Under the pieces are notes generated by a model. That model was not told where the DNA came from, searched no databases, and was given only the letters and a program-made list of their open reading frames with translations. From assembly GCA_051294905.1 (NCBI GenBank), contig CM119371.1:558001-622000 (forward strand): a stretch of DNA of 64,000 nt. Direction: 5' to 3'. Made by a program: the position numbers and the translations under genes. Source of the stretch: Botryllus schlosseri (lineage: Eukaryota). Of the stretch, positions 1 to 15,683 are shown one piece after another (the first letter of the stretch is position 1; each line of letters begins with the position of its first letter).

Positions 1-88
1 AGAACCATCTTGAAATATGATTTGTGATTCAGTGCAATGCATTTATTGTGTGAATGTGAATGTTAATGTGATGTGTATGAAATTACAG

Positions 89-471
89 ATAACAGGCTTA
101 CAAACGATCGGAAAATCGTAAACACTAGATAGTGCTCGCATTGGGTTAATCTCAACGCAGTCAACTCGGTCTTTTCCACCTGGCCGTCGCCACGAGAGGA
201 TCTCGAATCTGCGCTCGTGAATATATTACCAATACACGTGTAAGTATACACTGATCTTATTCAATAGACCAAAGTTTGTGTTAACGCGATGTTTTCTTGC
301 TTCATCGAAACAGAGAAAGAGAAGAAGAATCAAGCCCAATCATCGAACTTATTGCATCGGTGAGTTCTCTGTTTTTTTACTACCTTAAGTTGGTGAACAT
401 AATTTTGAGGAAGGTTGTTTCTTTGTTTACCAGGTGAAAAAGAACTCAAGATTTCAAGGGAAAAAATATAA
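89..471 (+). other. Putative spliced upstream exons (about 89/133-239, 314-359, 434-471) of the Polinton early transcript
   Basis: Donors GTAAGT (240), GTGAGT (360), GTAAGT (472) and acceptors ending CAG at 313, 433, 540 define introns of 74, 74 and 69 nt. Confidence 0.6.
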
Positions 472-540
472 GTAAGTGTTACTATCTCGTTGATTATTAG
501 AATACAGAGTGTGAAATTGAAATCGAATTCAATGTTACAG

Positions 541-3500
541 ATGAGCCGTCGCAGAAGACACCGTATCCGTGAGAAAGCTGAATTTCCACCAGATATTGGT
601 GATGAACGTCAAGAAATTTTAACACAGAACTGGCAAGCCATAAAATCGTATGTAGCAAACATAGGCAGATCTCGAGTGGTGTACAATATTCGGATTATAA
701 ATCGTCAACTCTCAGCTGTTCGCGAGGACATCGAAGCGATATTCTTCTCTGAATCGTGTAGATTTAAAGTCAACTATTCATCTGGCTGTATTCTATACCA
801 CACCGAGACTCTAAGATATCGTTATTTTCATGCATCGTCAAATATCGATCGTGTTCTGGATATGCCATTGGCTATTTCATCATTGATACAGTTTGAAAAA
901 TTTGTAGAATCCATTAGATTGGAAACTGCATTTGATGTATTGCGTAAAGCCCGACCAGATACTAAATCACAGCCTGTTTGTCTAACAAATATACAGTTTT
1001 ACGTATTCCCTAGCGATAGGTTATTGATAGGGTGTACTGATGTTAATCTTCCTCTGTGGCTTACAAAATCGAAATGTGTCATGACACTACTTCATGATAA
1101 AAATCGTAATCGGTATAACGATAATCTGTGTGTATTTCGTTGCATTGGCCACTCGCTCGATCGTGATGCGAAATCATTGGCTGAACAGTATACCCAGGTT
1201 TATGGTGTGAACGTTGTTGGTTGTGTAACTTTTGAAATGTTACCTGACATCGAAAGATTGTTTGATGTAGCGATATCTATCTATCGTAAGACCGATGGTA
1301 AAGCTATTGCTGTCCGACGTAGTACTTATGTAGCCACTCCTGTTTATTTACACCTCGAAAATTCTCATGCTTGCTTGATAACTCAGATCAATCGATACCT
1401 CGAAAGCTATCATTGTGAATCTTGTGGAAAATTTTTCGATCTTGCAACTCATCTGACCAGGCACAACTGCATCACTGAACCTGTCGAGATATTTCCCGGC
1501 GGGATATATAGACCACCTTTGACGGTATTTGAACGAATGGAGATTGAAGGCATAATTGTCCCAAATCATTTACGTTTTTTCAAATATCGGATTGCCTTCG
1601 ATATCGAGAGTATGTTTCAACAATGTGATTTTGATCCCTCAGCTAAAACGACTTACGAGTGGAAGCATATTCCAATTTCCGTTAGTATATCATCAAATGT
1701 AGACGGGTATTTGGAACCACAGGTAATTGTTTCTAATGGTGATCCAATTCAGTTGTGTGAAGAGATGGTAGAGATTTTTCATACAATTCAGAGTCGATCC
1801 TTAAGTCTGTTGCTAGTTGAATACCGTCAATATCTGGATTTGTTTGAATCTAAAATCACAGAGATGAAAGTATTAGACCCCTCGGACAAGCCTTTACCAT
1901 TGGAACGTTTACAAGATGAATTCATGTGCTATCTAAGGCGAATACCAGTTATATCTTTTAATGGTGACAGATACGACTTGAACTGTCTTAAGGTATACTT
2001 GCTGCGTTTTTTCGTTGATGAAAACTTGAATGTTTTGAAGCGTGGTAACACATTTCTCTCGCTAACTACGAACAGGCTTCGTTTCCTCGATATCGTCAAT
2101 TACTTGGCACCTGGTTTTTCTTATGAAAAATATCTGAAAGCGTTCAAATGTAGTGGTGCAAAGGGTCATTTTCCATATGAATTTCTGACTAGTATTGAAC
2201 TGTTAGATTACCCTATGCTCCCGAATCATCAGTCATTTTATAGCTCGATAAAACGTTGTAATATATCGAAAGCTGATTATGAAAACAGCCTCAAGGTTTG
2301 GAATGATCATAATATGACATCGCTTCGTGACTATCTAAAATGGTACAATGCAATTGACACTCGCTACTTCATTGAAGGGTTAGAAAAGCAATTCGACTCT
2401 TTCAAGTCTCAATTTAATGTGGATATATTTAAAGAAGCTGTCTCGCTGCCGGGTGTTGTTTCGAGGCATATATTCAATTCCATTCCAAGGTGCTTCACCT
2501 TGTTCAGTGAAAAGCATAAAGACCTAGCTTTACTTTTTCGTGAAAATCTTGTCGGTGGCCCGTCAATCATCTTTAATCGGTATCAAAAAAGGGGGGAAAC
2601 TCGCATAAAACAACTTTTCTATGGTAAAGACGCAGAAATAACGCAGTATATAAGAGGGATGGACTGCAATTCGATGTACCTCCGAGCAATTTCGCTTGCG
2701 TCACCAGCAGGCTATCCCATTCATTGGAAAAGCCTTGATAACGAGTGTTCTAAATTTAAACCGGTCAAGACTGCTCCTACCTTTGGCCATAAAGCGCATG
2801 AATGGATACAGTACTATTCTCATGTTCATGGTGTACATGTCCACCATGCTTTCAACGGGTCAGAAGTAAGGATAGGCTCCAAGGGGTACCCTGCAGATGC
2901 ATTCTACCGTGACTCATCGGGTCGAGGCGTTGTGTTATCGTTTCTGGGGTGTTTCTTCCATTCTCACAGTAAATGCCGCTTTGCATATGACGACCCCGTG
3001 CGTCGAGAGCGAACAGAACGTGTACATTCATATTACAGAAGCCTAGGGCATCGTGTTATCACGATGTGGGAATGTCATTGGGATATCTCTAAACGTGAAA
3101 ACTCCGAAATCGCTCAATTTATAAACAGTGTTCGACCTCGATTGATTCGCAACAAGTCACTAACAGCTCATAAGTTGATTGAAATGGTGTTAGATGGAAC
3201 GTTCTTTGGGGCTTTACTGGTTGATATTTACACTCCTTCCCATTTGAAAAGATATTTTTCTGAACTGTGTCCAATATTCAAAAACACCCTTGTCTCTCGT
3301 AACGACCTGAAAGGCCACATGAAGCAATTTGCTATTGATCACAACCTATTACCAGCAGCTACACGTATGTTGGTTGCATCGTACTATGGCCAGAGAATTC
3401 TTTTGTCATCGACATTGATAAAATGGTATATAGAACATGGTCTAATTGTTTCACGGATATACGAGGCAATCGAATTTACAAAATCAACTTGTTTTGAAGG

Positions 3501-4393
3501 GTTCGCAAAAACTGTCTCTGACGCGAGACGGCTAGGTGACCGGGATCCGGACAAGGAAATTATTGCTTTGACTCATAAGCTTTCTGGTAATGTGATATAT
3601 GGGAAGATGATAATGAACCCCCTCAAATTTAAACGAACCAGTTTTTGTGATAAAAGTCAATTGCGGAGAAATGTCAATGATCCGTTTTTTGTGAATGTAG
3701 AAGACTTGACCTCTAATTTATACGAAGTAACCAAAAGGCCTAAAAAAAATAAAATGGAATACTTGCATTCACGTCGGATGGTTCGTTTATCAAAACGCGA
3801 AACAGCAATTGCTATCGTTTTTTTACGACTGTCTCTGTACGTACTTTGACGACAGGAAATGGGTAATGGCAATGTGTGACACGGACTCGATCTACATCGG
3901 GCATTCAGCTTCTTTCGATGATATGCTAATCCCAGAAAAAAGATCTGAATTTCATCTGAATTACGAAAAATGGTTCCCACGCTATTTTTGTGACGAACAT
4001 AGAAATGAGTTCCTGTCCAACCCAACCTCATTCGATAGAACGAGGCAATGCTGTAAAGATGTCTATGCATACTTTCTACAGCAACCTGGTTTGTTCAAGG
4101 TCGAATACGAGGACGGTACTGCATTTTGTGGTCTCCAATCAAAAAATTACTTTTGCGATGGTCCAAAACAAAAGTATGCCTCGAAAGGTCTTCAGAAATC
4201 TGGTCAAGTAAATTTTGAAACATTCCTTGAAGTATTGACATCTCAAAAACCTATGGGAGGTCATAATAGAGGGTTCAGAGTTCATAATAACGGTATTTAC
4301 ACGTACCAGCAGCATCGCGATACCTTGTCTTATTTTTACGCCAAGCGTCATGTTCTGGACGATGGCGTCACCACTATTCCCTTGAATCTGTAA
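541..4393 (+). pseudogene. pPolB: Protein-primed family B DNA polymerase (pPolB), one frameshift at the A8 run 3742-3749
   Basis: Exonuclease motifs AFDIES, FNGDRYD, YNAID; polymerase motifs DCNSMY, KLSGNVIYGK, CDTDS (3875-3889), KNY. Removing one A at 3742-3749 joins ORF 490..3849 to ORF 3809..4393 through KIKWNTCIHVGWFVYQNAKQQLLSFFYD. First ATG is at 541. Confidence 0.95.
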
Positions 4394-4445
4394 TGTGTAA
4401 TTGCTTTTGTATATTTCTGATCATGTTTTTTCTTGTTTTTCACAG

Positions 4446-4961
4446 ATGAATATTGCAAGTTCTTTCATCAAATCTGTTTTAATAGAGTTAGATTTGGATA
4501 CTTTGCATAAGCAAACCATTGGCTTGGAACAGGATTTAACGCAACACTCTATTGTCGGGACCCAGGACGAGCCACTCACCGGTACGATATCCGACCGTCA
4601 TTACAGAGAGCGCCTGAATCAGCTCGAACAAAGATGGAACTCTATTCGTGAAATATGCATGGAAGCACTACTACAACTCCGATTCCCAGACATTTTCAAT
4701 CGAGCCAAGCTGACGAATTATGTCGTTTTGGGTAAAACCAGGACTTGGATTCCACTTTTCGATTGGGAGGAAAAAAGAGCCAACTTCAAGAATTGTATGC
4801 GTGGGCGTTCCTTGCAGCTCTTTCTCGACCAGCATCGTGCCGCCAACTCTAAAAAACGATCTCATTCAGACTCGGAAAGCAGTGATGCTGGAACACAACC
4901 TTCTGAGTTGAGAAATGATGGCTTCCCCGATAACTATAACTGTGCCGATCCCAATTTGTGA
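4446..4961 (+). CDS. Polinton hypothetical protein A (helical, about 171 aa, basic/acidic low-complexity tail)
   Basis: Open frame from ATG 4446, preceded by a polypyrimidine tract and CACAG; similar to the spliced product of 5080..5543. Confidence 0.75.
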   Translation: MNIASSFIKSVLIELDLDTLHKQTIGLEQDLTQHSIVGTQDEPLTGTISDRHYRERLNQLEQRWNSIREICMEALLQLRFPDIFNRAKLTNYVVLGKTRTWIPLFDWEEKRANFKNCMRGRSLQLFLDQHRAANSKKRSHSDSESSDAGTQPSELRNDGFPDNYNCADPNL

Positions 4962-5079
4962 TATTTTGCTGTTTAGTGATAATGCTTATCAATTTTAGGT
5001 GTTCAAATGTAATATCTAACCGGGTTAAAGACCAGTTTTGTGCTCGGATGGTTTAATGTATTTGTGTTTTGTTTTACAG

Positions 5080-5538
5080 ATGGCTACTAACTACTTAAAA
5101 TCTATACTACAACATTCCAAACTGGATCAACTACGTGACAAGACACTGTGCCGTTATCACGATCGCATTCAAGTCGTCGACATGTATTTGAGACATGATA
5201 TATCGAATGAATTCTACAATCGATGCGTTTCAAGACAACGCGAGGATTTAGAACAATGCTCCCATGGTGAGATAGCATGTATGATTTTGTGTTCTCATGC
5301 TAGACATTTTCACAAATAACTTTCCGACACAACTCTAATATCATTTCATATCTAGACTGGGAACAACTGCTGGACGATCTTCAAAAAGCCTTCGTGACCT
5401 TGCAACTACCCTTGACGAAATTACAAACCAGTGATGAGGACTTTGTCACACGCGGCAAACTGCTGAATCGAACTTTGCTGGGACTATACATCCCACTTGA
5501 AGATGAATACAACAGTGGATTCTCCCAGTCCGCGGACT

Positions 5539-5543
<5 letters not shown>
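5080..5543 (+). CDS. Polinton hypothetical protein B, two exons (5080-5266, 5356-5543), paralog of protein A
   Basis: Intron GTGAGA (5267) ... CTCTAAT branch-like site ... TCTAG (5355). Splicing gives an open frame ...EQCSHDWEQLLDDLQKAFVTLQLP...FVTRGKLLNRTLLGLYIPLEDEY...TGA, which aligns with protein A. Confidence 0.72.

Positions 5544-5572
<29 letters not shown>
5543..5572. repeat. (AT)n microsatellite inside the Polinton, about 15 units
   Basis: Direct observation; followed by AATAAA at 5598-5603. Confidence 0.95.
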
Positions 5573-5577
<5 letters not shown>

Positions 5578-5610
5578 CATTCGTTTTTCGAGTTTTGAAT
5601 AAACAGCAAC

Positions 5611-6219
5611 ATGGAATTCAAGCATCCTTTCTCATTCATCCCATCCGGACCATCTCGTAGTGGTAAAACTACTTTCATCACTAAACTGATCAAGAATGCA
5701 GCCTCAATGATCAAACCTAATATTTCTAGAATCGTGTACTGCTATAATAATTATCAGAGTATTTTTGAGACCATGCCCCAGGTTGAATTTTACAATGGAT
5801 TGGAGATTTTGGAAGATCTTAAATCAAGTAACGAGGATGTATTGATAATAGTAGACGATTTTATGACTCAGACAGAAAAATTGGTAGAATATTTTATACG
5901 TATATCGCATCATAACCGAAAGTCAATAATATTCTGCACACAAAACTTTCATCATCAGGGCAAAGGCGCTCGCGACCTCAGTCTATCAGCTATGTATGTC
6001 TGCCTGTTTAAAAATCCCAGAGATCAGAACCAAATATCTGTCTTGGGGCGTCAGATGTACCCAAAGTCCAAGTTTCTAACAGAATGTTATAGAGACGCTG
6101 TCAAGAGACCTCATTCGTATTTGTGCCTCGATCTCACACAAGAGTGCCCCGATGATAGACGGGTCATGACCAATATATTTCCAGGCGAAACATTGACTAT
6201 TTACACTCAACCGGTATAA
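5611..6219 (+). CDS. A32/FtsK-like genome packaging ATPase
   Basis: Walker A GPSRSGKT, Walker B LIIVDD, ISHH and CTQN motifs, LFKNPRD; 202 aa intact. Confidence 0.95.
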   Translation: MEFKHPFSFIPSGPSRSGKTTFITKLIKNAASMIKPNISRIVYCYNNYQSIFETMPQVEFYNGLEILEDLKSSNEDVLIIVDDFMTQTEKLVEYFIRISHHNRKSIIFCTQNFHHQGKGARDLSLSAMYVCLFKNPRDQNQISVLGRQMYPKSKFLTECYRDAVKRPHSYLCLDLTQECPDDRRVMTNIFPGETLTIYTQPV

Positions 6220-6226
6220 ATACCGG
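6211..6226 (+). promoter_or_regulatory. Candidate TATA box within a short palindrome (CCGGTA-TAAA-TACCGG)
   Basis: TATAAATA at 6215-6222 overlaps the ATPase stop codon, about 30 nt before the ATG at 6251. Confidence 0.45.
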
Positions 6227-6250
6227 GGTGTACGCTGTTCTGGTTTCAAA

Positions 6251-6598
6251 ATGACTCCGATTCCGCGCAGAACAAGAGACCATTTGCCAACATTAGCATT
6301 CTTGCATCAAGCTAAACCCGCGATACGCAAGGAGATTTTATCTGGGGCTAGTGAAGGTCTAATACGTTGTATTTGTGAGTGTGCGAAAAATTTATTACAC
6401 GGAAATATACCGCTATCAGCGTCCCAGAGAAAACGCTTGTGTTGCCATAGGAACATCTTGAGGAAGCTTACCAACAAAGACGTTTCATTGCGCCGTAAAA
6501 GGACTCTTGTGACTCAAAATGGTGGGATGTTTATGTCTCTAATATCAAGTATACTCCCAGTAGTTACAGGATTACTCGGGAATTTATTTAAGAAATGA
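6251..6598 (+). CDS. Conserved small basic Polinton protein with QxGG motif and amphipathic C-terminus (putative virion precursor protein)
   Basis: ICECAKNLLHGNIPL, basic LRKL/RRKR stretch, QNGG followed by MFMSLISSILPVVTGLLGNLF. Confidence 0.75.
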   Translation: MTPIPRRTRDHLPTLAFLHQAKPAIRKEILSGASEGLIRCICECAKNLLHGNIPLSASQRKRLCCHRNILRKLTNKDVSLRRKRTLVTQNGGMFMSLISSILPVVTGLLGNLFKK

Positions 6599-7002
6599 CA
6601 CATTTCAAGAAAATTTACGTCACGCCGAATCCACTCAACCATGTCGACATTCAAAAACTGAATTCAGACATCGATAAACGTATATACGAAATATTACAAA
6701 TGGATATTCCGCGGGGTAAAAAATTGGCGTTATATAACGACGCGTTGAATCGGTTCCAGAACAGACACGATGTTCTTAATCAACCCATGAAAATTGATGT
6801 ACCAAATCAACCTAACCTGTTTTCTAATGCTGAATTGGATGCGTTACGACACATGATAAAAATCAAACCTGAATCTTCAAAGATCCCCGTACCGAACCAG
6901 TCACCTGCTAGACCCAGAACTAAAATCCCTTCGCCCCATGTCACAACGAAAAGGGGGCGGTCTATCAAGACACCGGCGCGATTCAAATGGAACGTTTACT
7001 GA
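6595..7002 (+). CDS. Conserved Polinton hypothetical protein, 135 aa
   Basis: IDKRIYEIL...KLALYNDALNRF helical N-terminus and C-terminal KWNVY; ATGA overlap with the upstream gene; position just before the integrase. Confidence 0.65.
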   Translation: MTHFKKIYVTPNPLNHVDIQKLNSDIDKRIYEILQMDIPRGKKLALYNDALNRFQNRHDVLNQPMKIDVPNQPNLFSNAELDALRHMIKIKPESSKIPVPNQSPARPRTKIPSPHVTTKRGRSIKTPARFKWNVY

Positions 7003-8014
7003 ATATTTCGCTCCGGATCGACCTGGTAGCTATCGTGGAGCGTATGTGTTCGGCAGGGGGCGCAATAGAGCCGCGGTAAAAGACTTTCTTAGGCGACACG
7101 AGACCTATACCAGACATTTCCCTGTCCGACAAAAGTTTCAACGTCCAAAAGTAATTACATCAGGTTTAGGTGTCCAATATCAAGCTGACCTCATGCACAT
7201 GGAAAACCTAGCATCGGAAAATGATGGTTTCAAATACATATTATTGGTTGTGGACATATTCAGTAAAATTCTATATCTTTTCCCGCTTCGAGATAAATCT
7301 GCAAAGGGTGTTATTCGATGTTTCAAAGAAATCTTTACCCAAATTAAACCCCACATTATTCAGAGCGACCAGGGAACTGAGTTTACAAACCGCTCCTTCC
7401 AGAGTTTTTTAAAACAGAACGGTGTAAAACACTTTTTCACACATAGCGAATTGAAGGCATCTATAGCCGAGCGTGCCATCAGAAGTGTGAAGCAAACACT
7501 ATTCCGGTACTTTACACATAATAAAACGTTAAATTACGTCAATGTTTTATCGGAAATATGTCTAGGATTTAACTCAACTTACCATACGAGTTTAGGCCGC
7601 GCTCCGGTTGATGTTAATTTTTCAAATCAAGAAGATGTCTTTCATCGATTATACGGTGATACCACACCAAAGCAGCCAACACTATCCGTTGGTACCCCTG
7701 TGAGGATTTCAAAAACACGACAACGATTCGTAAAATCGGCATTGGCTGGTTGGAGCGAAGAAATATTTTTCATTTCGAAATGTTTTTCTGGGGACCCGAT
7801 TAGTTATCAACTGAAAGATTATGCAAACGAAAATGTATCCGGCCGCTTTCAACGCGAAGAAATTCAACCTGTGATTATTGATAATGACATTTTCAACGTC
7901 GAAAAGATTCTGTCTACACGTAAGAAGGCCGGGAAAACCGAGTATCTGGTCAAATGGTCTGGATACCCCGAAAAATTTAATTCGTGGGTTTCGGATTACT
8001 ATATAAAGCCCTGA
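6938..8014 (+). CDS. Retroviral-like (rve) DDE integrase with C-terminal chromodomain
   Basis: YQADL, VVDIFSK, QSDQGTEF, IAERAIRSVK; C-terminal FNVEKILSTRKKAGKTEYLVKWSGYPEKFNSWV chromodomain. Exact start uncertain. Confidence 0.96.
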   Translation: MSQRKGGGLSRHRRDSNGTFTEYFAPDRPGSYRGAYVFGRGRNRAAVKDFLRRHETYTRHFPVRQKFQRPKVITSGLGVQYQADLMHMENLASENDGFKYILLVVDIFSKILYLFPLRDKSAKGVIRCFKEIFTQIKPHIIQSDQGTEFTNRSFQSFLKQNGVKHFFTHSELKASIAERAIRSVKQTLFRYFTHNKTLNYVNVLSEICLGFNSTYHTSLGRAPVDVNFSNQEDVFHRLYGDTTPKQPTLSVGTPVRISKTRQRFVKSALAGWSEEIFFISKCFSGDPISYQLKDYANENVSGRFQREEIQPVIIDNDIFNVEKILSTRKKAGKTEYLVKWSGYPEKFNSWVSDYYIKP

Positions 8015-8037
8015 GTAATGTTTTTTATATTGTAAAT

Positions 8038-8253
8038 ATGGATTCCCAGTCCACGTCAAGCCGCGTTACTGAATTCAAACTTGAAATAAAAAATCAGTGT
8101 GTATTTGTCGTACAAATTTTTATGCTAGTCGGAATAATCATTTTTTCGTTATATCAAATTTCTGTGAAACCCGATCGCGAAATATATTTAACGCTGTTAT
8201 CGAGCTGTCTAGGATATTTACTCCCACAACCGTCTCCTCATCGTGTGCGCTGA
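8038..8253 (+). CDS. Small two-helix membrane protein of Polinton type (71 aa)
   Basis: Hydrophobic VFVVQIFMLVGIIIFSLY and YLTLLSSCLGYLLPQP; TATATAAA at about 8000-8007 upstream and AATAAA at 8260-8265 downstream. Confidence 0.7.
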   Translation: MDSQSTSSRVTEFKLEIKNQCVFVVQIFMLVGIIIFSLYQISVKPDREIYLTLLSSCLGYLLPQPSPHRVR

Positions 8254-8265
8254 AAATACAATAAA

Positions 8266-9099
8266 ATGCTGTTAACCTTACCATCCAATGCTAGTATGTC
8301 AATTTTTGAAAATACACCATCAAATTTTGAAACAGAACTCTACAGTGAACTAGAAATGCCATAACACCTTGTCGGTCTTTCTGAAATAAGTTTTGAAAAT
8401 AATTTTCAACCCCGGATTGAAGTGGCAAGAAATACTATGGGGTTCAGATTTGGTGATGAAAATTCAGGTGTCAAGCAATATTATATTCCAGAAGGATCTT
8501 ATCACAATGTCGCGGAAATGCTAGAATCTTTTGAAAAATACTACATGGGTGAAATATTCATCATTCAAGGATATGACGAGTTTAGAATCGCTTTTCGAAA
8601 TTTACCATCGCACAGAGTTAGACACACGCGAAGTATATCGACAAATAATAACATCGGGAGTATGGTTACAAGACCGAAAGACCTTAACACCGAGAAATCA
8701 ATAGAGACTTACGGATTGTCACCTATTGGCCCCGTGTTGAGTAAATTAGCTTTTAAGCGCGTATATGCCCCGCATTCCACTATGCCGATAGAATTCATAT
8801 TTTCCCCTGCCGTGAAATTAGACCCAATCGATCAAATTTATGTCTATTCTGATTTGATTCAGCCACGACCCCATGGTAATCAGTTACAACCACTCTTACG
8901 AGTCATCACAGTGACATGTGAACCAAATCAGAATCAAACTAGTGTCTTTCATAAACCATACTATTTTCAGTTGGCGAAAAACAAATTTCGCCGAATAAGA
9001 ATATATTTACATGATAAATTTGGTAATCCAATTAAATTTCAAAAAGGACCTGTCACTGTCAGTCTTTTATTCCGCCGAAAAGCTGTGGACTCGATATGA
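8266..9099 (+). pseudogene. Minor capsid (penton-like) protein 1, in-frame TAA at 8362-8364
   Basis: N-terminus MLLTLPSNASMSIFENTPSNF...*HLVGLSEISF is in frame with ORF 8422..9099, which has YVYSDLIQP...GNQLQPLLRVI and IRIYLHDKFGNPIKFQKGPVTVSLLFR. Confidence 0.85.
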
Positions 9100-9773
9100 C
9101 ATACGTCACAATTTCTGGAGATCACGCGGGATTCTCAGTCGACCTTACCAAGACTATCATTTGCAATGAAATCTCACTTATAGACATAAGCTTTAATGTT
9201 GAGTTAAACAATCAAATTATAATTGAACGTGATGAAAAAATTTGGGAGTATCGTAATTCACAACAATTACTAGATACATACCTTACCCCCATTGGAAATT
9301 ATGCTACCCCGAAACAGTTGATGGATAGGATTTTATCTGAAAGATTTCCGTATAATACTGTTTATAACATAGAGAAAATCAGTGGAGAACTATTCCGAAT
9401 TCTAACCCCGATACATATTACAATCCACCCCAACAGTATTCTAGAAAAATATTTCAATGTCACACGCGACCTAACATCACGGTTATGTAATTCCACATTA
9501 ATCAGGTGTAAACCGGTGCCCACTGAGATAAGATATCTTTTTGTTTATTGTGACTCAGTCAAGCATCGTCACTTGGGTGATTATATGAGTCAACTACTTC
9601 GCGTTATTCAAATCAAAACCACTCCACGTTACCGCGAAGAGATCATTTATGAGAAACCGATATATTTTCCAGTATCAACAAATCACATCCAGAATATAAA
9701 AATCTCCATTAGAGACCAATTCGGTCAGTTGATCCAGGGTATACACACTACGTTGACACTTCATTTACGATGA
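9096..9773 (+). CDS. Minor capsid (penton-like) protein 2
   Basis: ISLIDISF; FVYCDSVKHRHLGDYMSQLLRVI; PIYFPV...IKISIRDQFGQLI...LTLHLR. Confidence 0.82.
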   Translation: MTYVTISGDHAGFSVDLTKTIICNEISLIDISFNVELNNQIIIERDEKIWEYRNSQQLLDTYLTPIGNYATPKQLMDRILSERFPYNTVYNIEKISGELFRILTPIHITIHPNSILEKYFNVTRDLTSRLCNSTLIRCKPVPTEIRYLFVYCDSVKHRHLGDYMSQLLRVIQIKTTPRYREEIIYEKPIYFPVSTNHIQNIKISIRDQFGQLIQGIHTTLTLHLR

Positions 9774-10162
9774 TTTTAACGCTGACCCATTCTAGGAATG
9801 GTATAGGTTTCCAACACTGGCTGTCCACTGTTAACGAAATCTCTACGAGATACCGTGAGATAGCGCTTATGGAGATGAATATGACATTGACCAAACCTAT
9901 ACCAGGACGATATTTGTTTGTCTATTGTAATATTATCAATCCACGATTGGTCGGGGACACATTTGCTAATTTACTCCGTGTCATCCCGTTACAAAATAAC
10001 ACCATGTCACAAAATTGGATATCGACGAATCCATATCATTTTTCGATATCGCAAGATGTTATACACTCCGTTTGTATTTCATTGAGAAATGAATTTGGTG
10101 ACCCTATAAATATAGACAACCAATCATTGCAAGTCACATTTAACATTAGGAAGCAATTATGA
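9770..10162 (+). CDS. Minor capsid (penton-like) protein 3, minimal form lacking the central insertion
   Basis: EIALMEM followed almost at once by FVYCNIINPRLVGDTFANLLRVI; ISLRNEFGDPI...VTFNIR; 130 aa. Confidence 0.8.
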   Translation: MILTLTHSRNGIGFQHWLSTVNEISTRYREIALMEMNMTLTKPIPGRYLFVYCNIINPRLVGDTFANLLRVIPLQNNTMSQNWISTNPYHFSISQDVIHSVCISLRNEFGDPINIDNQSLQVTFNIRKQL

Positions 10163-10533
10163 AAGTTGCGTACACCTGCGACCATCACTCGGTATACAAC
10201 CATTATAATCAAACAGGGAATGGATTTGGATATTTCGCTGGTGGCCACCAAACAGGGTCTGGTATTGGTAGCTTGTTTAAAACTCTTGGTCGTTTCGTGA
10301 CCACTGTTGTGAAATACGCTGGCGGACAATTGTTACGTACCGGGGGTGAGATAGCCAGAGATCTTTTGAACGGACACTCCATCAAGTCCAGTGCCCTCAA
10401 AAGAAGTAAGCAAGCTGGGACTCGCGTTATTGATCGAATTTTGAAACCCAACAATGGTATAAAAAGAAAGAAAAATACTAAATCAAACATTTCTAAGAAG
10501 CGACGCCGCAAAGAGAAGGACATCTTCGATTAA
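10159..10533 (+). CDS. Basic core/membrane-lytic-like Polinton virion protein
   Basis: QTGNG and QTGSG motifs, amphipathic GIGSLFKTLGRF helix, Lys/Arg-rich C-terminus ending DIFD; lies directly before the major capsid gene. Confidence 0.75.
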   Translation: MKVAYTCDHHSVYNHYNQTGNGFGYFAGGHQTGSGIGSLFKTLGRFVTTVVKYAGGQLLRTGGEIARDLLNGHSIKSSALKRSKQAGTRVIDRILKPNNGIKRKKNTKSNISKKRRRKEKDIFD

Positions 10534-10534
10534 C

Positions 10535-11805
10535 ATGATGATGCATGAAGATTCCCACGAATGTCATAATAACGGATTAAATATATTTAGTGTTCCTCAT
10601 ACCCAAACCTCGATAGAGAATTCACAATATGTCATCGTTAAACCACACAGTCTGGGAAATGTAATGGAAATTTCATTACCTAAAACAGACAGATACATCG
10701 ACCTGCAAAACTCATTCTTACGATTATGCCTAAAGCTTACTAAACACGATGGAACAGATTTAGCAGATGCCGCGGAAGTAGCATTTGTCAACAATATATT
10801 AGATTCTCTTTTCAAACAAATTGATGTAACTATCGGAAATGAAGTAATCACCAATTCAGACAATTGCCACGCATACAAAGCGTATATCTATCGACTGTTG
10901 AATGACACACCCGCTGGATCCAACAGTTTTATTCGTGGCCAGGGCTTCCACAAAGACACCGCAAAATTTATGGATACTATAGGCGCTGAAAACACAGGGT
11001 ACGTAACGCGAAAAGGTCTTACGAAAAGTAGTAAAGCATTGGAGTTGATTGGTAAAATTAGAATGGGACTTTTCGAGCAATCAAGATGTATGCTGGATAA
11101 TGTCGATATGAAATTACGATTCACATGTAACGACGACAAATTCTGCCTTATTGGAACCACCGAAGACGTGAAAATTGTAATCACGGATATGGAACTATAT
11201 GTCAAACAAATGAAAATTACAGAGAGTGTCAGCTTAGCTCACAAATCGATATTACAGAAATCGAATGCTAAATATCCGTGGTCTCGTCTTCAAATGTCAA
11301 CTCATACATTCGCAGGGGGACTGACGAAGCTTGACCGCGAGTTAGTTAGCGGGACTTTGCCGAAAAAAATTGTAATTGGCTTGGTTGAAACCACAGCGTT
11401 TAACGGGGCTAGAAACAAAAACCCATTCAACTTTAAACATTATGACATTCAGAATATGTCATTGGCTGTTTGTGGCAATCAATTACGAGGTAGAGAATTC
11501 CATTTCAATTTCGAAAAATCGGGGGTTTAGAAGGTTATATGATGCTCTTTTCTGAGACAGGGAGGTGGGAAGGTGAGGCACCTTTAAATATATCACCTAC
11601 CGACTATATGAATGGTTATACTCTGTTCGTGTTTGATTTGACCCCAGATAATAGCTTAGGGTGTTACCAACTACACAAAACCGGAACCGTACACCTGGTT
11701 TTGACAACCTCCAAACCACTACCAACGTCTGTGACATTGCTGTGCTTAAAAGAGTACCAACACCTCTTACAACTGAACCAGAAAAGACAGGTCGTGGAAA
11801 TATGA
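10535..11805 (+). pseudogene. Major capsid protein (double jelly-roll), one frameshift near the G5 run 11521-11525
   Basis: LNIFSVPHTQTSI, VNNILDSLFKQIDV, AFNGARNKNPFNFKHYD, GYTLFVFDLTPD. Adding one G joins 10535..11530 to 11539..11805 as FEKSGGLEGYMMLFSETG. Confidence 0.93.
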
Positions 11806-12248
11806 ACACGGATGAGATTAATAATATTCTCTTCAATCATCCTGACACGAAAAATCTATTCATAGGGACTTATGCTGTGGATCAGCTACCGAAAAAACCA
11901 AAATACCAGAAATTTGCTGTTGTCATCAATTACGACGAACCAACGTTACCAGGTTCTCATTGGGTGTGTGTATATAGCGATAACTCCACTCATTTTCATG
12001 ATTCACTTGGTTTCCCACCCCTAAAACCTCAGATAGTCGAGTTTCTAGGTTCAGAGGACTTCACCGTTACCAGGCAACAGCTTCAAAGTAAAAAATCTGA
12101 TATGTGTGCTGATCATTGTATTTCATATTTGATTAAAAGAGCTCAAGGTTTTTCAACTGAACAGTATCTGAATTATTTTGGTGATAAAAAATATGAGAAT
12201 GATAAAATTGTTCGCTTTTTCGTAAAGAGCTTGATTACAGGTGGATAA
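11802..12248 (+). CDS. Adenain-like cysteine protease (capsid maturation), 148 aa
   Basis: FIGTYAVDQLP, NYDEPTLPGSHWV (His), HDSLG (Asp), LQSKKSDMC (Gln, Cys); starts at an ATGA overlap with the capsid stop. Confidence 0.93.
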   Translation: MNTDEINNILFNHPDTKNLFIGTYAVDQLPKKPKYQKFAVVINYDEPTLPGSHWVCVYSDNSTHFHDSLGFPPLKPQIVEFLGSEDFTVTRQQLQSKKSDMCADHCISYLIKRAQGFSTEQYLNYFGDKKYENDKIVRFFVKSLITGG

Positions 12249-12252
12249 TAAA
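12247..12252 (+). terminator. Polyadenylation signal AATAAA after the last Polinton gene
   Basis: AATAAA overlaps the protease stop codon. Confidence 0.55.
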
Positions 12253-12270
12253 CACATTCAATGTATACAT

Positions 12271-12577
12271 CCGTGATTCGTGATATACTTAACACAGTGA
12301 GTCAGTTTTGCGCTGAGCGTTGACGGGAAGCAATTCGCGTAGTGATTCAGTCGACAGGATACCATAGTCATTTGTCTCCGCAGAATATGTAGGTCACTTC
12401 GCATTAAAACACCTGTTTTCAAAATCGATCGCGGGAAGCGCACAATGACGCTTTTTCGAAGCTCCATAGGCCGATTTTCGACCACTAGCTAGCTCAAAAT
12501 GCACCGTTTCTGACTTCCGAAATGCAACATTCTTGTTTCCGGTATTTTACGAATCACGGGACCACAATATAACTACT
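12271..12577. repeat. Probable right terminal inverted repeat of the Polinton (inner boundary uncertain)
   Basis: Non-coding, CpG-rich segment after the last gene, ending CACAATATAACTACT. The partner TIR is outside the window. Confidence 0.65.
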
Positions 12578-12862
12578 ATAGTCTCTGTAAGGGGAAAGTG
12601 CGACAGCGTTTCTATCGAATATTTTCCCAAGGAAACAGGGGAAACGGGGGTTTTTACTGTTGTTGTTGTTGTTGCCGTCACGGTAGCTCGAGTTATTGCA
12701 TTATGACGTAACGCTCTTCACAGAGAGTTTAATGTTAGGTCACGGGAGAGTGATGCGGCGACCATTCATTGCGTATAAAAAAAAAATATAGTGATTGTGG
12801 GAAGGAGTGACGACTGAATTCAAATGCCCGATTGATATTCATCCGCCATAGATTTTGGTGTT

Positions 12863-13186
12863 GAGATGAGAATGATTAGGTTAGGATTTGGGAAAACAGG
12901 ATTTGAGAAATTTTGGTGGATTAGGATTCTGATTGGATTTACCGATTTTCGGAAGAATATGTCCTGGGGCGAATGGCGACAAAGTTTTTTCGTCCTATCT
13001 ATGATACTTCGTGGATTTTGAGCATTCTATTTATTTTTTACAGAATTATCGGCATTGGACATAGGCTTTCTAAGTGGAATGCTAAGTTTGAATCGGATTA
13101 GGATTAGGACTAGGATTGTAGTATACAGAATTTCTGGATCGGAAAGGATTGGATGAGGACATAGAAGTTTTGAATCCGCTCATCTC
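12863..13186. mobile_element. Degenerate MITE with GGATTA subterminal repeats
   Basis: GAGATGAG...CTCATCTC ends, many GGATTA/GGATT units; related fragment near 25535-25620. Confidence 0.4.
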
Positions 13187-13334
13187 AGGTTTATTGGCGC
13201 CATTTTGCAGTATCTATCTCGTAAAGATGGTTGTTTATGGTATTATTGTCGGTTATACTTTCAATATTTGATATCATACCATCACCATATGAATCGCGAA
13301 ATATCTATTTAAATCATGGACGAAACATGGATGC

Positions 13335-13440
13335 GGCGAGTTGGGATAATCCACAGCTACAACACCTATGTGTTGTCGGTTCGAGTCCGACTGAGGTCGA
13401 CTCCAGAATTCTCTTACCTAGGTGTTGCAGGTTTTTCTAT
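13335..13440 (+). mobile_element. tRNA-derived SINE head (family 1)
   Basis: B-box GGTTCGAGTCC (13378-13388) followed by GACTGAGGTCGACTCCAGAATT; similar copies at about 39610-39722 (-) and 51567-51690 (+). Confidence 0.55.
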
Positions 13441-13776
13441 TGTGGAAACCAGAGGTTTCCAGAATGCTTTGTATTTGCCATTTGGAAATTGCGTTGGACA
13501 TGGTATGGCTGGAGACCGCGTATTGACTTAGTTGAGTGAGGCAGTTTGGCTGAGTTCGTGACTGGAGATGGATGCGAGTGACTATGTCTCTATGTTTGGT
13601 AGCGTGAAGCATAAGTAGTTGGGAGCAGTAGCGTGAAGTAGAGGCTGTATAAGGCAGCTAGGGCGAGAAGTAGTAGGTAGTTGGTCTTGTATTTGCAGGC
13701 TTGAGTTGGACGTACCGATCGGAATCTCTGCTGGGGCACGGCCTAGTCACTCACGGTGCTACGCGAGCACCTAGGG

Positions 13777-15236
13777 CAAGGGTCGGCAACCTACGGCCCG
13801 CGGGCCGGATCCGGCCTGCCAAGCGAAATCGTCCGGCCTGCGAGATAATAATTAGTTATCACAAGACTACGGCCCGCCGTTTCACAATGCTTTTCAGTAG
13901 AAGTAGAGTAGAATAGATCAGTGCTTATCAATCTGGTATATCTCGCAACCGAAAATTTACCATACTTTTTAGCGAGTTTACCGATCGGGTTTGACAATAA
14001 AAGTGTCCTTCCTCTGCTTCAAAAACGCTTGGAACATCTCAGACGCAATGACAAAATCTCAAACTTACACTGTTTAATTATAGATAACTAGCCTCCGTAG
14101 ATTAGTTATCCATAATTTAATTCCCAAAAGGCATAGTGCGCCAAGACAACAAACCTGAAGTGTTTTGGCCACAATGATGAACACTGTTAATATGATTTTG
14201 TCTCAAAAACTGAATCACCAACATTGTTACGCCAAATATTACTAGAAGCATAGAGTCAATATGGCGATGTAATGTATATCTGCCCTGTTCGTGCATTAAG
14301 TCGAGAAGCTATACTTGCACTAGTCTATGAACTGAGAAATGGAATAGCAGCTTTCCTCGAAAATACGAATATCGCCGACTCATAATCTTATAATCGAAAA
14401 TGGGTAACTAATCTTGCTCTCCTGGTACATTTAACGTCTCATCTGAACAAAGTGAATTTCCAACTTCGAGGGGACAACGACTGAATACATGAGATGTTAA
14501 GGCACATTCGAAACAAATCTGCGTCTCGGAGAATTTCAACAGTACAAAGAAAATTATGCTCACTTTCTTATACTGGAGAGAAAACCTAGTAACAATGCTA
14601 TATTTGTAACTGTGATACGAAATTTAATTACTGAATATTCACCAGCTTTACCGACATTCCTTCAATACAAAATAAATTCTGAATATTCAGTACTCCATTT
14701 AATGTGGACGCCAATAGCAATGCCTGAAAATTTCAAATGGGCATTTTTGAAATGCGATGCAGTTGGTTGAATGAAAAATTTCATACAAAGGGCATATCGC
14801 TGCATGACTTTGATAAAGAGTACGTTCTTGAAATTTATCTTTATCCCAGCTTGTCCAACAATGCAAAAGACATTGGCATCGATTTTTGGTAGCACGTACG
14901 CATGTGAGCAAGAGTTTTGAACAATAAAATTCACGAAGAGCAAGCTAAGATCACGTATTTTGGACGCCCATTTAGAATATGGTCTGATTCTTGCTTCATT
15001 TGACTTGTTGTCAGAAGTTGAAAACCTTTCACAAAGCAAGCTGCGTCAATTGTCACATTTATTCTGCGTTGTTGAAGTGTAAATACATGTGTTTTGTGAT
15101 TGGTAGGGTTGAGATTGCAGCAATGTAGGATAATATACCGAAGTAAGCGTAAAATATTGTATTAAGAAGAATTCCGACCCACCCAGTTGCATACTCGAAA
15201 TTTGGCCCGTGACTAGCAAAAGGTTGCCGATCCCTG
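13777..15236 (+). mobile_element. Decayed hAT (Buster/SPIN-like) DNA transposon with transposase remnants
   Basis: TIRs CAAGGGTCGGCAACC / GGTTGCCGATCCCTG; TSD ACCTAGGG/ACCTAAGG; remnants WVTNLALLVHLTSHLNKVNFQLRG (from 14401) and LASIFGSTYACEQEF*TIKFTKSKLRSRILDAHL (about 14873-14975). Confidence 0.88.
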
Positions 15237-15683
15237 ACCTAAGGAGTGATGTTGCCCCTATGGTAGTTCCTACTCGCTTGTAGATGGCAAGGCTGCTGCT
15301 GGGATAGGTTCATGCTGATAAGTATGTGTGCGTGCTGCGTGGGTTTAGCGTGGAGTGTCGTTACAGTTTGCTGTACAGTGCATGTGTCGAATATAGGTGT
15401 TGTAGATCGTCTGGGGTTCCGTTATATGTGTCCTCGAGCATCGCTATTATGAGATTCTTGTGTCGTATGAATATAATATTATTACCGCATACATTTGTGG
15501 TGTTGTCAGTGTCAGTCTCCGTCGTGTATTATGTAAGTGTTGTTCGAGCAGGCGGCAGTCGCAAAGAGACGAGGTCACAAGCCCAGTAACACACCTTCGT
15601 TCCCGTTATTGTTACGGGGTCGCTACGGGGCCGTTACGGGGTCGCTACACTAGGCTCATGTACGCCATATCATCCGCCTAAGC

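What the first reader, a model, noticed from the sequence alone, without database searches (positions are those of the whole stretch)
4446..5543. Hidden intron reveals a tandem pair of paralogous unknown Polinton proteins
Seen in sequence: ORF 5080 appears to end at 5319, but removing an 89-nt GT-AG intron (5267-5355) gives a protein matching the intronless 4446 gene at several points: MNIASSFIKSVL..LDLDTLHKQT vs MATNYLKSIL..SKLDQLRDKT; RWNSIREICMEALLQLRFP vs DWEQLLDDLQKAFVTLQLP; FNRAKLTNYVVLG..WIPL vs FVTRGKLLNRTLLGLYIPL. The restored similarity independently supports real splicing in this element. I do not recognise the family. Inference: a duplicated early-gene family with intron gain or loss between the copies.
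Basis: partly seen in the sequence, partly recalled or inferred. Interest (0 to 1): 0.72.

Follow-up and report, generated by a model that had tools for sequence, protein, structure and literature searches.

The report
Trans-spliced paralogous Polinton early genes
Two small neighbouring genes of a virus-like transposon (Polinton) in an animal genome are old duplicates of each other; one carries a real 89-base intron, and both get the host's spliced-leader sequence joined at their start codon, which shows how the element uses host RNA processing.

Summary
Gene A (4446-4961) and gene B (5080-5266 + 5356-5543) are true paralogs. A versus spliced B scores 87 against shuffles of 30±5 (0 of 2000 reach it). 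With the usual 180-aa form of A the score is 110 (z 15.5), and the profile-profile E-value is 1e-6.

The intron 5267-5355 is real:
- RNA reads of one run show the exact GT..AG joint 288 times, plus 147 reads of the same joint from sibling copies. A second data set holds one spliced contig.
- 26 of 26 genomic copies, in two Polinton families about 68% alike, keep GT..AG at the same place and phase. The intron body diverges to 46% identity.
- The spliced frame is under purifying selection (dN/dS about 0.15).

New here: both start codons abut a pyrimidine-tract CAG acceptor, and reads join a roughly 24-nt leader there. This leader is absent from the window, occurs 334 times in the genome followed by GT, and matches a published chordate spliced leader. 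So the genes are SL trans-spliced.

The reads come from sibling copies, not from the window's own copy. Only the polymerase-A-B part of the element shows reads or contigs.

The protein family has no detectable relatives, and its function remains inferred.

The parts
490..4393 (+). Protein-primed DNA polymerase B gene of the Polinton (context). In this copy the reading frame changes within 3731-3849.
   Evidence: PF03175 E 4e-6. The two open frames overlap at 3731-3849. A contig of X1 is colinear across 3650-4398, so this is not an intron.
4424..4445 (+). Pyrimidine tract plus CAG: the trans-splice acceptor directly before the start codon of gene A.
   Evidence: Reads of X1 (1 contig), X20 (4) and X23 (4) carry the leader up to place 4444. 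A pyrimidine tract plus CAG lies before the ATG in 20 of 20 copies of both families.
4446..4961 (+). Gene A, intronless, 171 aa here and 180-182 aa in most other copies. It has the shared N-terminal domain (about residues 1-115), then a basic stretch, then an acidic Ser-rich tail.
   Evidence: dN/dS within family 1 is 0.07. Charge profile.
5057..5079 (+). Pyrimidine tract plus ACAG: the trans-splice acceptor directly before the start codon of gene B.
   Evidence: 288 reads of X24 carry the leader up to place 5078. TTTTACAG lies before the ATG in 25 of 26 copies.
5080..5266 (+). Gene B exon 1 (62 codons plus 1 base).
5267..5355 (+). Spliceosomal intron of gene B: 89 nt, GTGAGA...CTAG, phase 1.
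   Evidence: Joint 'skips 89, GT..AG': 288 reads from 156 start places in X24 and one contig in X1. The same joint from sibling copies: 147 reads in X24 and 2 in X23. GT..AG is present in 26 of 26 copies.
5356..5543 (+). Gene B exon 2 (2 bases plus 61 codons plus stop).
5570..5603 (+). TATAAATA (5570-5577) and the only AATAAA of 4301-5700 (5598-5603). These are a likely poly(A) signal for the A/B transcripts and a possible TATA box for the next gene.
   Evidence: Positions. Read depth falls after this region and is 0 from 5839 on in X24 and X1. The roles are inferred.
5611..6219 (+). A32/FtsK-type packaging ATPase gene (context). No reads in X24 or X1 from 5839 onward.
   Evidence: PF04665 E 3.6e-5; depth table.

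Best explanation
The window begins inside a Polinton/Maverick (virus-like self-synthesizing transposon) in a roughly 495-Mb animal genome. Between the polymerase gene and the packaging-ATPase gene lie two small genes, A and B.

Shown:
- A and B descend from one tandem duplication that is older than the split of the two Polinton families in this genome.
- B is interrupted by a phase-1 GT-AG intron (5267-5355) that the host spliceosome removes. A has no intron.
- Both genes are matured by spliced-leader trans-splicing. A pyrimidine tract plus CAG sits directly before each ATG, and the host's roughly 24-nt leader is joined there. The 5' untranslated region of each mRNA is therefore essentially the leader alone.

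Inferred:
- The transcripts probably end at the AATAAA at 5598.
- pPolB, A and B behave as one expressed 'early' block, while the ATPase-to-capsid block is silent in the samples read.
- A and B may be cut out of a longer precursor, in the way tunicate operons are resolved. This is not shown.

Function (inferred, low confidence, about 0.25). The shared, mostly helical 115-residue domain ends in a strongly conserved ...KL.N..LLG...IPL motif and is the working part. A adds a basic stretch and an acidic, CK2-site-rich tail, which suggests nuclear or nucleic-acid contact. B is the bare acidic domain and may modulate A or act beside it in early replication or regulation of the element.
For: Paralogy:
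- z 11 to 15.5, with 0 of 2000 and 0 of 1000 shuffles reaching the observed scores.
- hhalign E 1e-6.
- In a six-frame scan of window 1-13000 with A residues 1-115, the B exon frames are the best hits after A itself (75 and 45, against 38 or less for the rest).

Intron:
- Exact GT..AG joint in 288 reads from 156 start places in X24, plus 1 contig in X1.
- The same site in sibling alleles: 147 reads in X24 and 2 in X23.
- 26 of 26 copies keep GT and AG. Intron lengths are 62, 80, 88, 89, 90 and 97 nt.
- The spliced frame is intact in 22 of 26 copies.
- Identity between the two families is 0.651 for exon 1, 0.464 for the intron and 0.735 for exon 2. dN/dS is 0.147 between families and 0.151 within family 1.

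Trans-splicing:
- The same leader lies before 4444 and before 5078 in four data sets from at least three studies. In the reads it is preceded by adapter-like or template-switch-like letters (my reading of those letters).
- The leader has 0 matches in the 64-kb window at up to 2 mismatches.
- The leader followed by GT occurs 334 times across the genome, against 0 for the reversed control. The nearest listed place on this contig is about 365 kb beyond the window's end.
- 8 of 10 such loci share a GGACC-N-GGTC hairpin downstream.
- The leader equals the 25-nt 'Chordata 1' spliced-leader consensus in Table 1 of PMC3795323 (passages read).
- The acceptor motif is kept in 20 of 20 A copies and 25 of 26 B copies, although the 40 nt upstream are only 64% alike between families.

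Expressed block:
- X24 depth per direction is about 190 on B, about 25 on A, and 0 over 5839-11676.
- X1 contigs lie only within 2266-5534.
Against: - The RNA does not come from this copy. At 5135 the window's base is unique among 14 family-1 copies, and 503 of 504 reads in X24 show the other base. At 4453 every read shows the non-window base. Splicing and trans-splicing are therefore shown for the family, not for this locus.
- X24 supplies almost all the reads. X20 and X23 add 4 leader reads each, and X23 adds 2 joint reads. X1 is only guessed to be RNA, although its spliced contig and its lack of any contig past 5839 argue for RNA.
- Intron retention could not be measured.
- No read shows a precursor spanning pPolB-A-B, so the operon-like part is untested.
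- The ATPase start has no conserved acceptor in family 2.
- Function has no support from homology or structure. Both AlphaFold2 models have mean pLDDT of about 49.
Confidence: 0.85

Rival explanations
1. The common 5' leader is an exon of the Polinton itself, placed near its left end and cis-spliced to each early gene like the adenovirus tripartite leader. It is not a host spliced leader.
For: The element's left end lies outside the window, because copies align from window base 1. A leader exon there could not be excluded from the window sequence alone.
Against: - The leader plus GT occurs 334 times, far more than the roughly 70 places that match gene A.
- No listed place lies beside the Polinton copies named. 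On contig C1 the first listed place is at 987,490, while the window starts at 558,001.
- The sequence equals a published chordate spliced leader.
- 8 of 10 loci share a hairpin downstream, as genes for a small RNA would.
Confidence: 0.03
2. 5267-5355 is not an intron. B is a decayed gene broken by an insertion, and the likeness of the downstream frame to A is chance.
For: Taken alone, each exon's similarity to A is modest: 11 of 3000 and 3 of 3000 shuffles reach the observed scores.
Against: - 435 joint reads in X24, 2 in X23 and a spliced contig in X1.
- GT..AG is present in 26 of 26 copies of two families, and 22 of 26 have an intact spliced frame.
- dN/dS is about 0.15.
- Combined z is 11 to 15.5.
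Confidence: 0.01
3. A and B are each transcribed from their own promoter as single-gene units and merely happen to be trans-spliced, as many single host genes are. There is no polycistronic early precursor.
For: - Depth differs about sevenfold between B and A in X24, and pPolB is near 0 there.
- No read spanning two genes was listed.
- In SL trans-splicing animals many monocistronic genes also receive the leader (general knowledge; PMC4122922 passages, give operon shares of 19-27% of genes).
Against: - No AATAAA or ATTAAA lies between the A stop and the B acceptor. The only one in 4301-5700 is at 5598.
- Spacers are short: 52 nt from the pPolB stop to the A start, and 118 nt from the A stop to the B start.
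- X1 holds contigs over pPolB, A and B together, and none over the rest of the element.
Confidence: 0.4
4. The transcripts reflect host co-option: one or a few copies of B (and A) have been domesticated as host genes, and the reads say nothing about the life cycle of the element.
For: - Reads concentrate on B, with structural genes silent.
- The window's own copy gives at most 1 of 504 reads at the diagnostic site 5135.
Against: - At least two allele groups are expressed: two forms of the exon-1 end at the joint, with 288 and 147 reads.
- A and B sit next to pPolB in both families.
- About 70 places in the genome match A, and 66 of the 71 matched stretches have no stop.
- dN/dS well below 1 among the many copies within family 1 is what is expected if the sequences diverged while the element was still multiplying.
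Confidence: 0.12

Closest known systems
Small conserved Maverick/adintovirus genes of unknown function (pz, pw and pm of vertebrate Mavericks; 'Adintoc' groups of adintoviruses)
   Same: Short ORFs without recognisable domains that are kept in fixed positions among the core genes. Their function is unknown in the literature too (PMC8097293 passages; PMC8502044 passages).
   Different: - No sequence relation could be shown: 0 hits in every search.
- In vertebrates module 1 is polB-ATPase-pm-pz. Here the pair lies between polB and the ATPase.
- The genes of intact vertebrate elements are reported as intron-less, whereas B has an intron.
Adintovirus 'Oncoid' accessory genes
   Same: Small early-region accessory proteins of animal Polinton-like viruses. 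A and B both carry CK2-type (S/T)xx(D/E) sites, in 16 of 16 and 22 of 22 copies.
   Different: - LXCXE: 0 of 16 A copies and 0 of 22 B copies.
- CR1-like motif: 0.
- CXXC: 0.
- Oncoids are described as lying upstream of PolB, while A and B lie downstream.
Spliced-leader trans-splicing of host genes and operons in tunicates, and of transposon transcripts in Hydra
   Same: - A short capped host leader is joined at an AG acceptor.
- In tunicates, co-transcribed genes are resolved this way (PMC4122922 passages).
- In Hydra about 30% of transposon Iso-Seq reads carry a leader; CR1 and Tc1 are shown (bioRxiv 10.1101/2024.03.13.584568 passages).
   Different: - Here the acceptors abut the start codons of two neighbouring genes of a virus-like element and are conserved in two diverged families. 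This points to an adapted feature rather than incidental use.
- My four literature searches that paired Polinton, Maverick, DNA virus or transposon with spliced-leader or trans-splicing terms found no report of this for Polinton genes.
- The Hydra preprint lists Maverick only among expressed families.
Adenovirus tripartite leader (recalled knowledge, no call)
   Same: Works alike in outcome: several mRNAs of a linear dsDNA element with a protein-primed polymerase share one short 5' leader.
   Different: The adenovirus leader is encoded by the virus and joined in cis. Here the leader is a host RNA joined in trans.

Membership tests
Polinton/Maverick element | Protein-primed family-B DNA polymerase | tested here: met
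   PF03175 E 4e-6, 26.4 bits against a cut-off of 25.8, on ORF 490-3849.
Polinton/Maverick element | Retrovirus-like (rve) integrase | tested here: met
   PF00665 E 1e-14 plus a chromodomain, PF00385 E 9.8e-10, on 6938-8011.
Polinton/Maverick element | A32/FtsK-type packaging ATPase | tested here: met
   PF04665 E 3.6e-5, 23.8 bits against a cut-off of 22.8, on 5611-6216.
Polinton/Maverick element | Double jelly-roll capsid protein and adenain-like protease | tested here: inconclusive
   Only a sub-threshold Capsid_N match (E 0.054) on 10535-11527, and no protease family found.
Polinton/Maverick element | Terminal inverted repeats | tested here: not met
   No long inverted repeat in window 1-20000. 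The left end lies outside the window, because copies align from base 1, so the test could not be completed.
Spliceosomal GT-AG intron | GT and AG ends, and removal restores one conserved reading frame | tested here: met
   26 of 26 copies have GT..AG, and 22 of 26 have an intact spliced frame.
Spliceosomal GT-AG intron | The joined form exists in RNA | tested here: met
   288 plus 147 joint reads in X24, 2 in X23, and 1 contig in X1. None of the 26 genomic copies lacks the intron.
Spliced-leader trans-splicing | The same short leader at the 5' end of different mRNAs, joined at an AG acceptor | tested here: met
   The leader lies before 4444 (gene A) and before 5078 (gene B).
Spliced-leader trans-splicing | The leader is not encoded upstream in the same transcription unit but in separate small-RNA genes with a GT donor | tested here: met
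   0 matches in the window. 334 dispersed places with the leader followed by GT, against 0 for the control. A shared hairpin in 8 of 10 loci; a strict Sm-like pattern in only 4 of 10. No Rfam family matched.
Spliced-leader trans-splicing | The leader is the one known for the host group | tested here: met
   Identical to the 'Chordata 1' consensus in Table 1 of PMC3795323.
Operon-like polycistronic unit resolved by trans-splicing | One precursor RNA spanning the neighbouring genes | not tested
Adintovirus Oncoid | LXCXE next to a CK2 site, a CR1-like motif, paired CXXC, and a position upstream of PolB | tested here: not met
   LXCXE, the CR1-like motif and CXXC are absent from 16 A copies and 22 B copies; only CK2-type sites are present. 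The genes lie downstream of PolB.

The most novel reading that the evidence does not exclude
Polintons living in a host that trans-splices have rebuilt their early region as a host-style operon. One precursor runs pPolB-A-B to a single poly(A) signal and is cut into separate capped mRNAs by the host spliced leader, at acceptors fused to the start codons. A and B are a lineage-specific pair of early regulators that stay expressed from integrated copies while the virion genes are silent. This would be a latency-like programme of an endogenous animal virus-like element.
Probability: 0.35. Interest if true: 0.78.

Novelty: new variant of a known kind. Interest (0 to 1): 0.6.

Why it matters
Animal Polintons/Mavericks are usually annotated as strings of intron-less ORFs, and intact vertebrate elements are reported to have none (PMC8097293). 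How their genes are transcribed is largely unknown.

This case gives read-level evidence for three things:
- One Polinton lineage uses both cis-splicing and host spliced-leader trans-splicing.
- The acceptors are placed exactly at start codons and are conserved in two families about 68% alike.
- Only the polymerase-side block is transcribed in the sampled material.

It follows that ORF-only annotation misses genes in such elements. It also suggests a simple way for a compact viral genome to express neighbouring genes in a eukaryote, and it defines a new, selectively maintained pair of accessory proteins whose role can now be tested.

Tried and rejected
Homology searches, all blank:
- Pfam at E 0.01 and at E 5. 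Only noise appeared (NNH5 0.04, DCX 0.068).
- ESM Atlas.
- Word-index search with the 180-aa A, and with B exon 2 against longer proteins.
- HMM profile of 8 A sequences against 1.84 billion representatives: 0 at E <= 0.001.
- PDB sequences: 0 at E <= 10.
- Viral contigs and metagenome contigs: pattern hits, but none confirmed.
- Earlier findings of this scan by sequence.

Structure:
- Two AlphaFold2 runs. The first used 8 A sequences. The second used 13 rows with the B exons as partial rows. Mean pLDDT was 49.2 and 49.0.

There is no result of any kind.

Sequencing runs: no RNA holder was listed by the index. The evidence comes only from the runs that were laid.

Other steps that led nowhere:
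- Rfam on 10 leader loci gave 0 matches.
- The bacterial promoter/terminator scan does not apply to a eukaryotic element and is disregarded.
- A third paralog inside the element was rejected by the six-frame scan.
- The 2006 paper that defined Polintons is not held. Its statement on introns is known to me only through PMC8097293.

Full report
WHAT IS THERE

The window is G000:C1:558001-622000 of a genome of about 495 Mb in 219 contigs. Its first 12 kb or so carry, all on the + strand:
- two small genes, called A and B here;
- an A32-type ATPase gene (5611-6219; PF04665, E 3.6e-5);
- two short ORFs;
- an rve integrase gene with a chromodomain (6938-8014; E 1e-14 and 9.8e-10);
- further ORFs up to 12248, one with a sub-threshold capsid match (E 0.054).

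This is a Polinton/Maverick. Copies elsewhere in the genome align from window base 1, so the element's left end lies upstream of the window. No terminal inverted repeat could be checked.

THE OBSERVATION

Gene A is an open frame from ATG 4446 to the stop at 4959-4961. The frame that starts at ATG 5080 stops at 5317-5319. GT lies at 5267 and AG ends at 5355. Removing these 89 nt gives a 124-residue frame that ends at 5543.

Similarity of A and spliced B:
- A against spliced B scores 87; shuffles give 30.2 ± 5.1, maximum 57, and 0 of 2000 reach 87.
- Each exon alone is only modestly similar to A (11 of 3000 and 3 of 3000 shuffles reach the scores), but the two matches are colinear.
- Only the exon-2 frame of the three downstream frames resembles A.
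- The window's A lacks 9 residues present in all other copies that span that stretch. With the usual 180-residue form the alignment gap disappears and the score rises to 110 (z 15.5, 0 of 1000).
- Other A/B combinations across the two families give z 7.2 to 12.
- A profile-profile comparison gives 91% probability, E 1e-6, over 103 columns.
- A six-frame scan of window 1-13000 finds no third paralog.

COMPARATIVE EVIDENCE FOR THE INTRON

The genome holds one family of copies 92-99% identical to the window, and a second family only about 68% identical over gene B. I aligned 26 copies of gene B: 14 of family 1, including the window, and 12 of family 2.
- GT and AG are at the aligned places in 26 of 26.
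- Intron lengths in family 1 are 89 nt (11 copies), 88, 90 and 62. In family 2 they are 80 nt (3 copies) and 97 nt (9 copies).
- Exon length differences are multiples of three.
- The spliced frame is intact in 22 of 26. Three copies have a stop or frameshift, and one has a 3' deletion.
- Between the families, exon 1 is 65% identical, exon 2 is 73.5% and the intron is 46%.
- dN/dS of the spliced frame is 0.147 between families (dS 1.7, near saturation) and 0.151 within family 1.
- Gene A also exists in both families. It is about 55% identical in protein and is one uninterrupted frame of 175-182 residues in the 20 copies read. Within family 1 its dN/dS is 0.07.

The tandem pair is therefore older than the split of the two families, and both genes are kept by selection.

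RNA EVIDENCE

I laid four data sets on window 1-12500 at 90% likeness: three raw RNA runs (X20, X23, X24) and one set of contigs guessed to be RNA (X1).
- The joint 'skips 89, GT..AG' is seen in 288 reads of X24 that begin at 156 places, and in one contig of X1.
- A second listed joint (5261 to 5354, with three other letters between) is the same splice site read from sibling copies whose exon 1 ends differently, as in three of the aligned copies. It adds 147 reads in X24 and 2 in X23.
- Loose ends at 5261, 5266 and 5355 show the other exon's sequence, as expected for spliced reads too short to be joined.
- No joint was listed inside gene A.
- I could not measure intron retention. No intron position appears among the 40 listed variant rows, although the expressed copies differ from the window there and flanking exon rows have more than 600 reads. 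However, 86 rows were not shown.

AN UNEXPECTED SECOND PROCESSING STEP

Both start codons are preceded directly by a pyrimidine tract and CAG.
- For gene A this holds in 20 of 20 copies, and for gene B in 25 of 26, although the 40 nt upstream are only 64% alike between families.
- Reads end at exactly these acceptors and continue upstream into one and the same sequence. This is seen for gene A in X1 (1 contig), X20 (4 reads) and X23 (4 reads), and for gene B in X24 (288 reads).
- In the reads the leader is itself preceded by letters that I read as sequencing adapter or template-switch oligo, so it is the 5' end of the RNA.
- The leader has no match in the 64-kb window at up to 2 mismatches.
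- Followed by GT, it occurs at 334 dispersed places in the genome, against 0 for the reversed control. The first listed place on this contig is about 365 kb beyond the window's end.
- In 8 of 10 such loci a shared GGACC-N-GGTC hairpin follows 60-85 nt downstream. A strict Sm-site pattern matched in only 4 of 10, and no Rfam family matched.
- The leader is identical to the 25-nt 'Chordata 1' spliced-leader consensus, which a review lists as shared by seven chordate species (PMC3795323, Table 1 and passages).

Genes A and B are therefore trans-spliced to the host's spliced leader at their start codons. The host is, by this inference, a chordate of the kind that trans-splices, that is, a tunicate. 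Background on tunicate operons comes from passages of PMC4122922.

WHICH PARTS ARE EXPRESSED, AND FROM WHICH COPIES

In X24 the depth per direction is about 190 over gene B, about 25 over gene A, about 64 in the bin after B, and 0 from 5839 to 11676. The polymerase is near 0. X1 has contigs only between 2266 and 5534, covering polymerase, A and B. X20 and X23 have very low depth.

The only AATAAA in 4301-5700 is at 5598, just before the ATPase start. A TATAAATA lies at 5570. I infer that the A and B transcripts end there and that the ATPase-to-capsid block is a separate unit, silent in these samples.

Whether pPolB, A and B come from one precursor is not shown.

An important limit: the window's own copy is not detectably expressed. 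Its base at 5135 is unique among the 14 family-1 copies, and 503 of 504 reads in X24 carry the other base. At 4453 every read carries the non-window base. The RNA evidence therefore holds for the family, with at least two allele groups expressed.

THE PROTEINS

Every search for relatives was blank. Two AlphaFold2 models are of low confidence (mean pLDDT 49.2 and 49.0). They agree only on a mostly helical build, and a fold search gave nothing usable.

What the sequences show (and the alignments):
- A shared domain of about 115 residues. Its most conserved part is the C-terminal ...KL.N..LLG...IPL stretch, which is invariant between families in each gene.
- A adds a basic stretch (residues 116-150, net charge about +7, with a KKR/RKR cluster) and an acidic Ser-rich tail with CK2-type sites.
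- B is the bare, acidic domain (pI about 5.3).
- The motifs that define adintovirus 'Oncoid' genes are absent. LXCXE, the CR1-like motif and CXXC are found in 0 of 16 A copies and 0 of 22 B copies (criteria from PMC8502044 passages).

My functional reading is inference only: an early accessory pair, with A making nuclear or nucleic-acid contacts and B acting with it or on it.

COMPARISON WITH WHAT IS KNOWN

- Intact vertebrate Mavericks are reported to have eight intron-less ORFs, including the unexplained pz, pw and pm. Their module order is polB-ATPase-pm-pz (PMC8097293 passages).
- Adintoviruses have conserved unknowns ('Adintoc') and Oncoids (PMC8502044 passages).
- Spliced leaders on transposon transcripts have been reported in Hydra for CR1 and Tc1 (bioRxiv 10.1101/2024.03.13.584568 passages).
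- My searches pairing Polinton, Maverick, DNA virus or transposon with spliced-leader or trans-splicing terms found no report of leader addition to Polinton genes. The C. elegans eri-6/7 case concerns repeats derived from Polinton ends, which is a different matter.
Introns in such elements may therefore be less rare than the vertebrate literature suggests.

VERDICT

- The intron is proven at family level.
- The paralogy is statistically solid.
- The added finding is start-codon-abutting trans-splice acceptors, conserved in two families.
- I rate this a new variant of a known kind.
- Function remains open.

Noticed in passing
window 3731-3849 (pPolB): In this copy the polymerase reading frame changes: two open frames overlap here. 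A contig of X1 runs colinear through 3650-4398, so this is a break of this copy and not an intron.
   Followed up: partly
window about 4690 (gene A): The window's gene A lacks 27 nt in frame (9 residues) that every other copy spanning that stretch has, in both families.
   Followed up: yes
window 532-543: The second in-frame ATG of the polymerase ORF (541) is also preceded directly by TTACAG, a possible third trans-splice acceptor. Read depth there was too low to test. Family-2 similarity to the window starts at about 529-531.
   Followed up: no
window 8422-11530: Five consecutive ORFs (225, 225, 130, 124 and 331 aa) abut or overlap by 4 nt at their ends (8422-9099, 9096-9773, 9770-10162, 10159-10533, 10535-11530). 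This is an unusually tight chain for a eukaryotic element. No Pfam family matched except a weak Capsid_N hit on the last ORF, and there were no RNA reads.
   Followed up: no
L031-L040 (ten of 334 places in the genome): The spliced-leader loci are dispersed rather than in tandem arrays. The sequence after the GT donor varies widely between loci, but 8 of 10 share a GGACC-N-GGTC hairpin. No Rfam family matches them.
   Followed up: partly
window 5544-5603: A (TA)n run and TATAAATA follow the stop of gene B directly, and AATAAA lies 8 nt before the ATPase start. Family 2 keeps a TATATAAAC-like stretch and the AATAAA. In family 2 there is no AG between the AATAAA and the ATPase start, so that gene probably has its own promoter.
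   Followed up: partly
window 5095 and 5138: In X24, 32 and 46 reads fit the window only from these places onward and run upstream into unrelated sequence. No AG precedes 5095. They may come from truncated copies embedded in other transcripts. Unexplained.
   Followed up: no
window 5267-5355 versus exons, family 1 copies: Within family 1 the intron is about as conserved (95.4%) as the exons. That is well below the synonymous divergence of the exons (dS 0.158). It may reflect constraint on the intron or small-sample noise over 89 nt.
   Followed up: no
window 15674-17042: Inverted repeat of 26 nt (88% complementary) with arms 1317 nt apart, outside the Polinton. It may be a small DNA transposon.
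   Followed up: no
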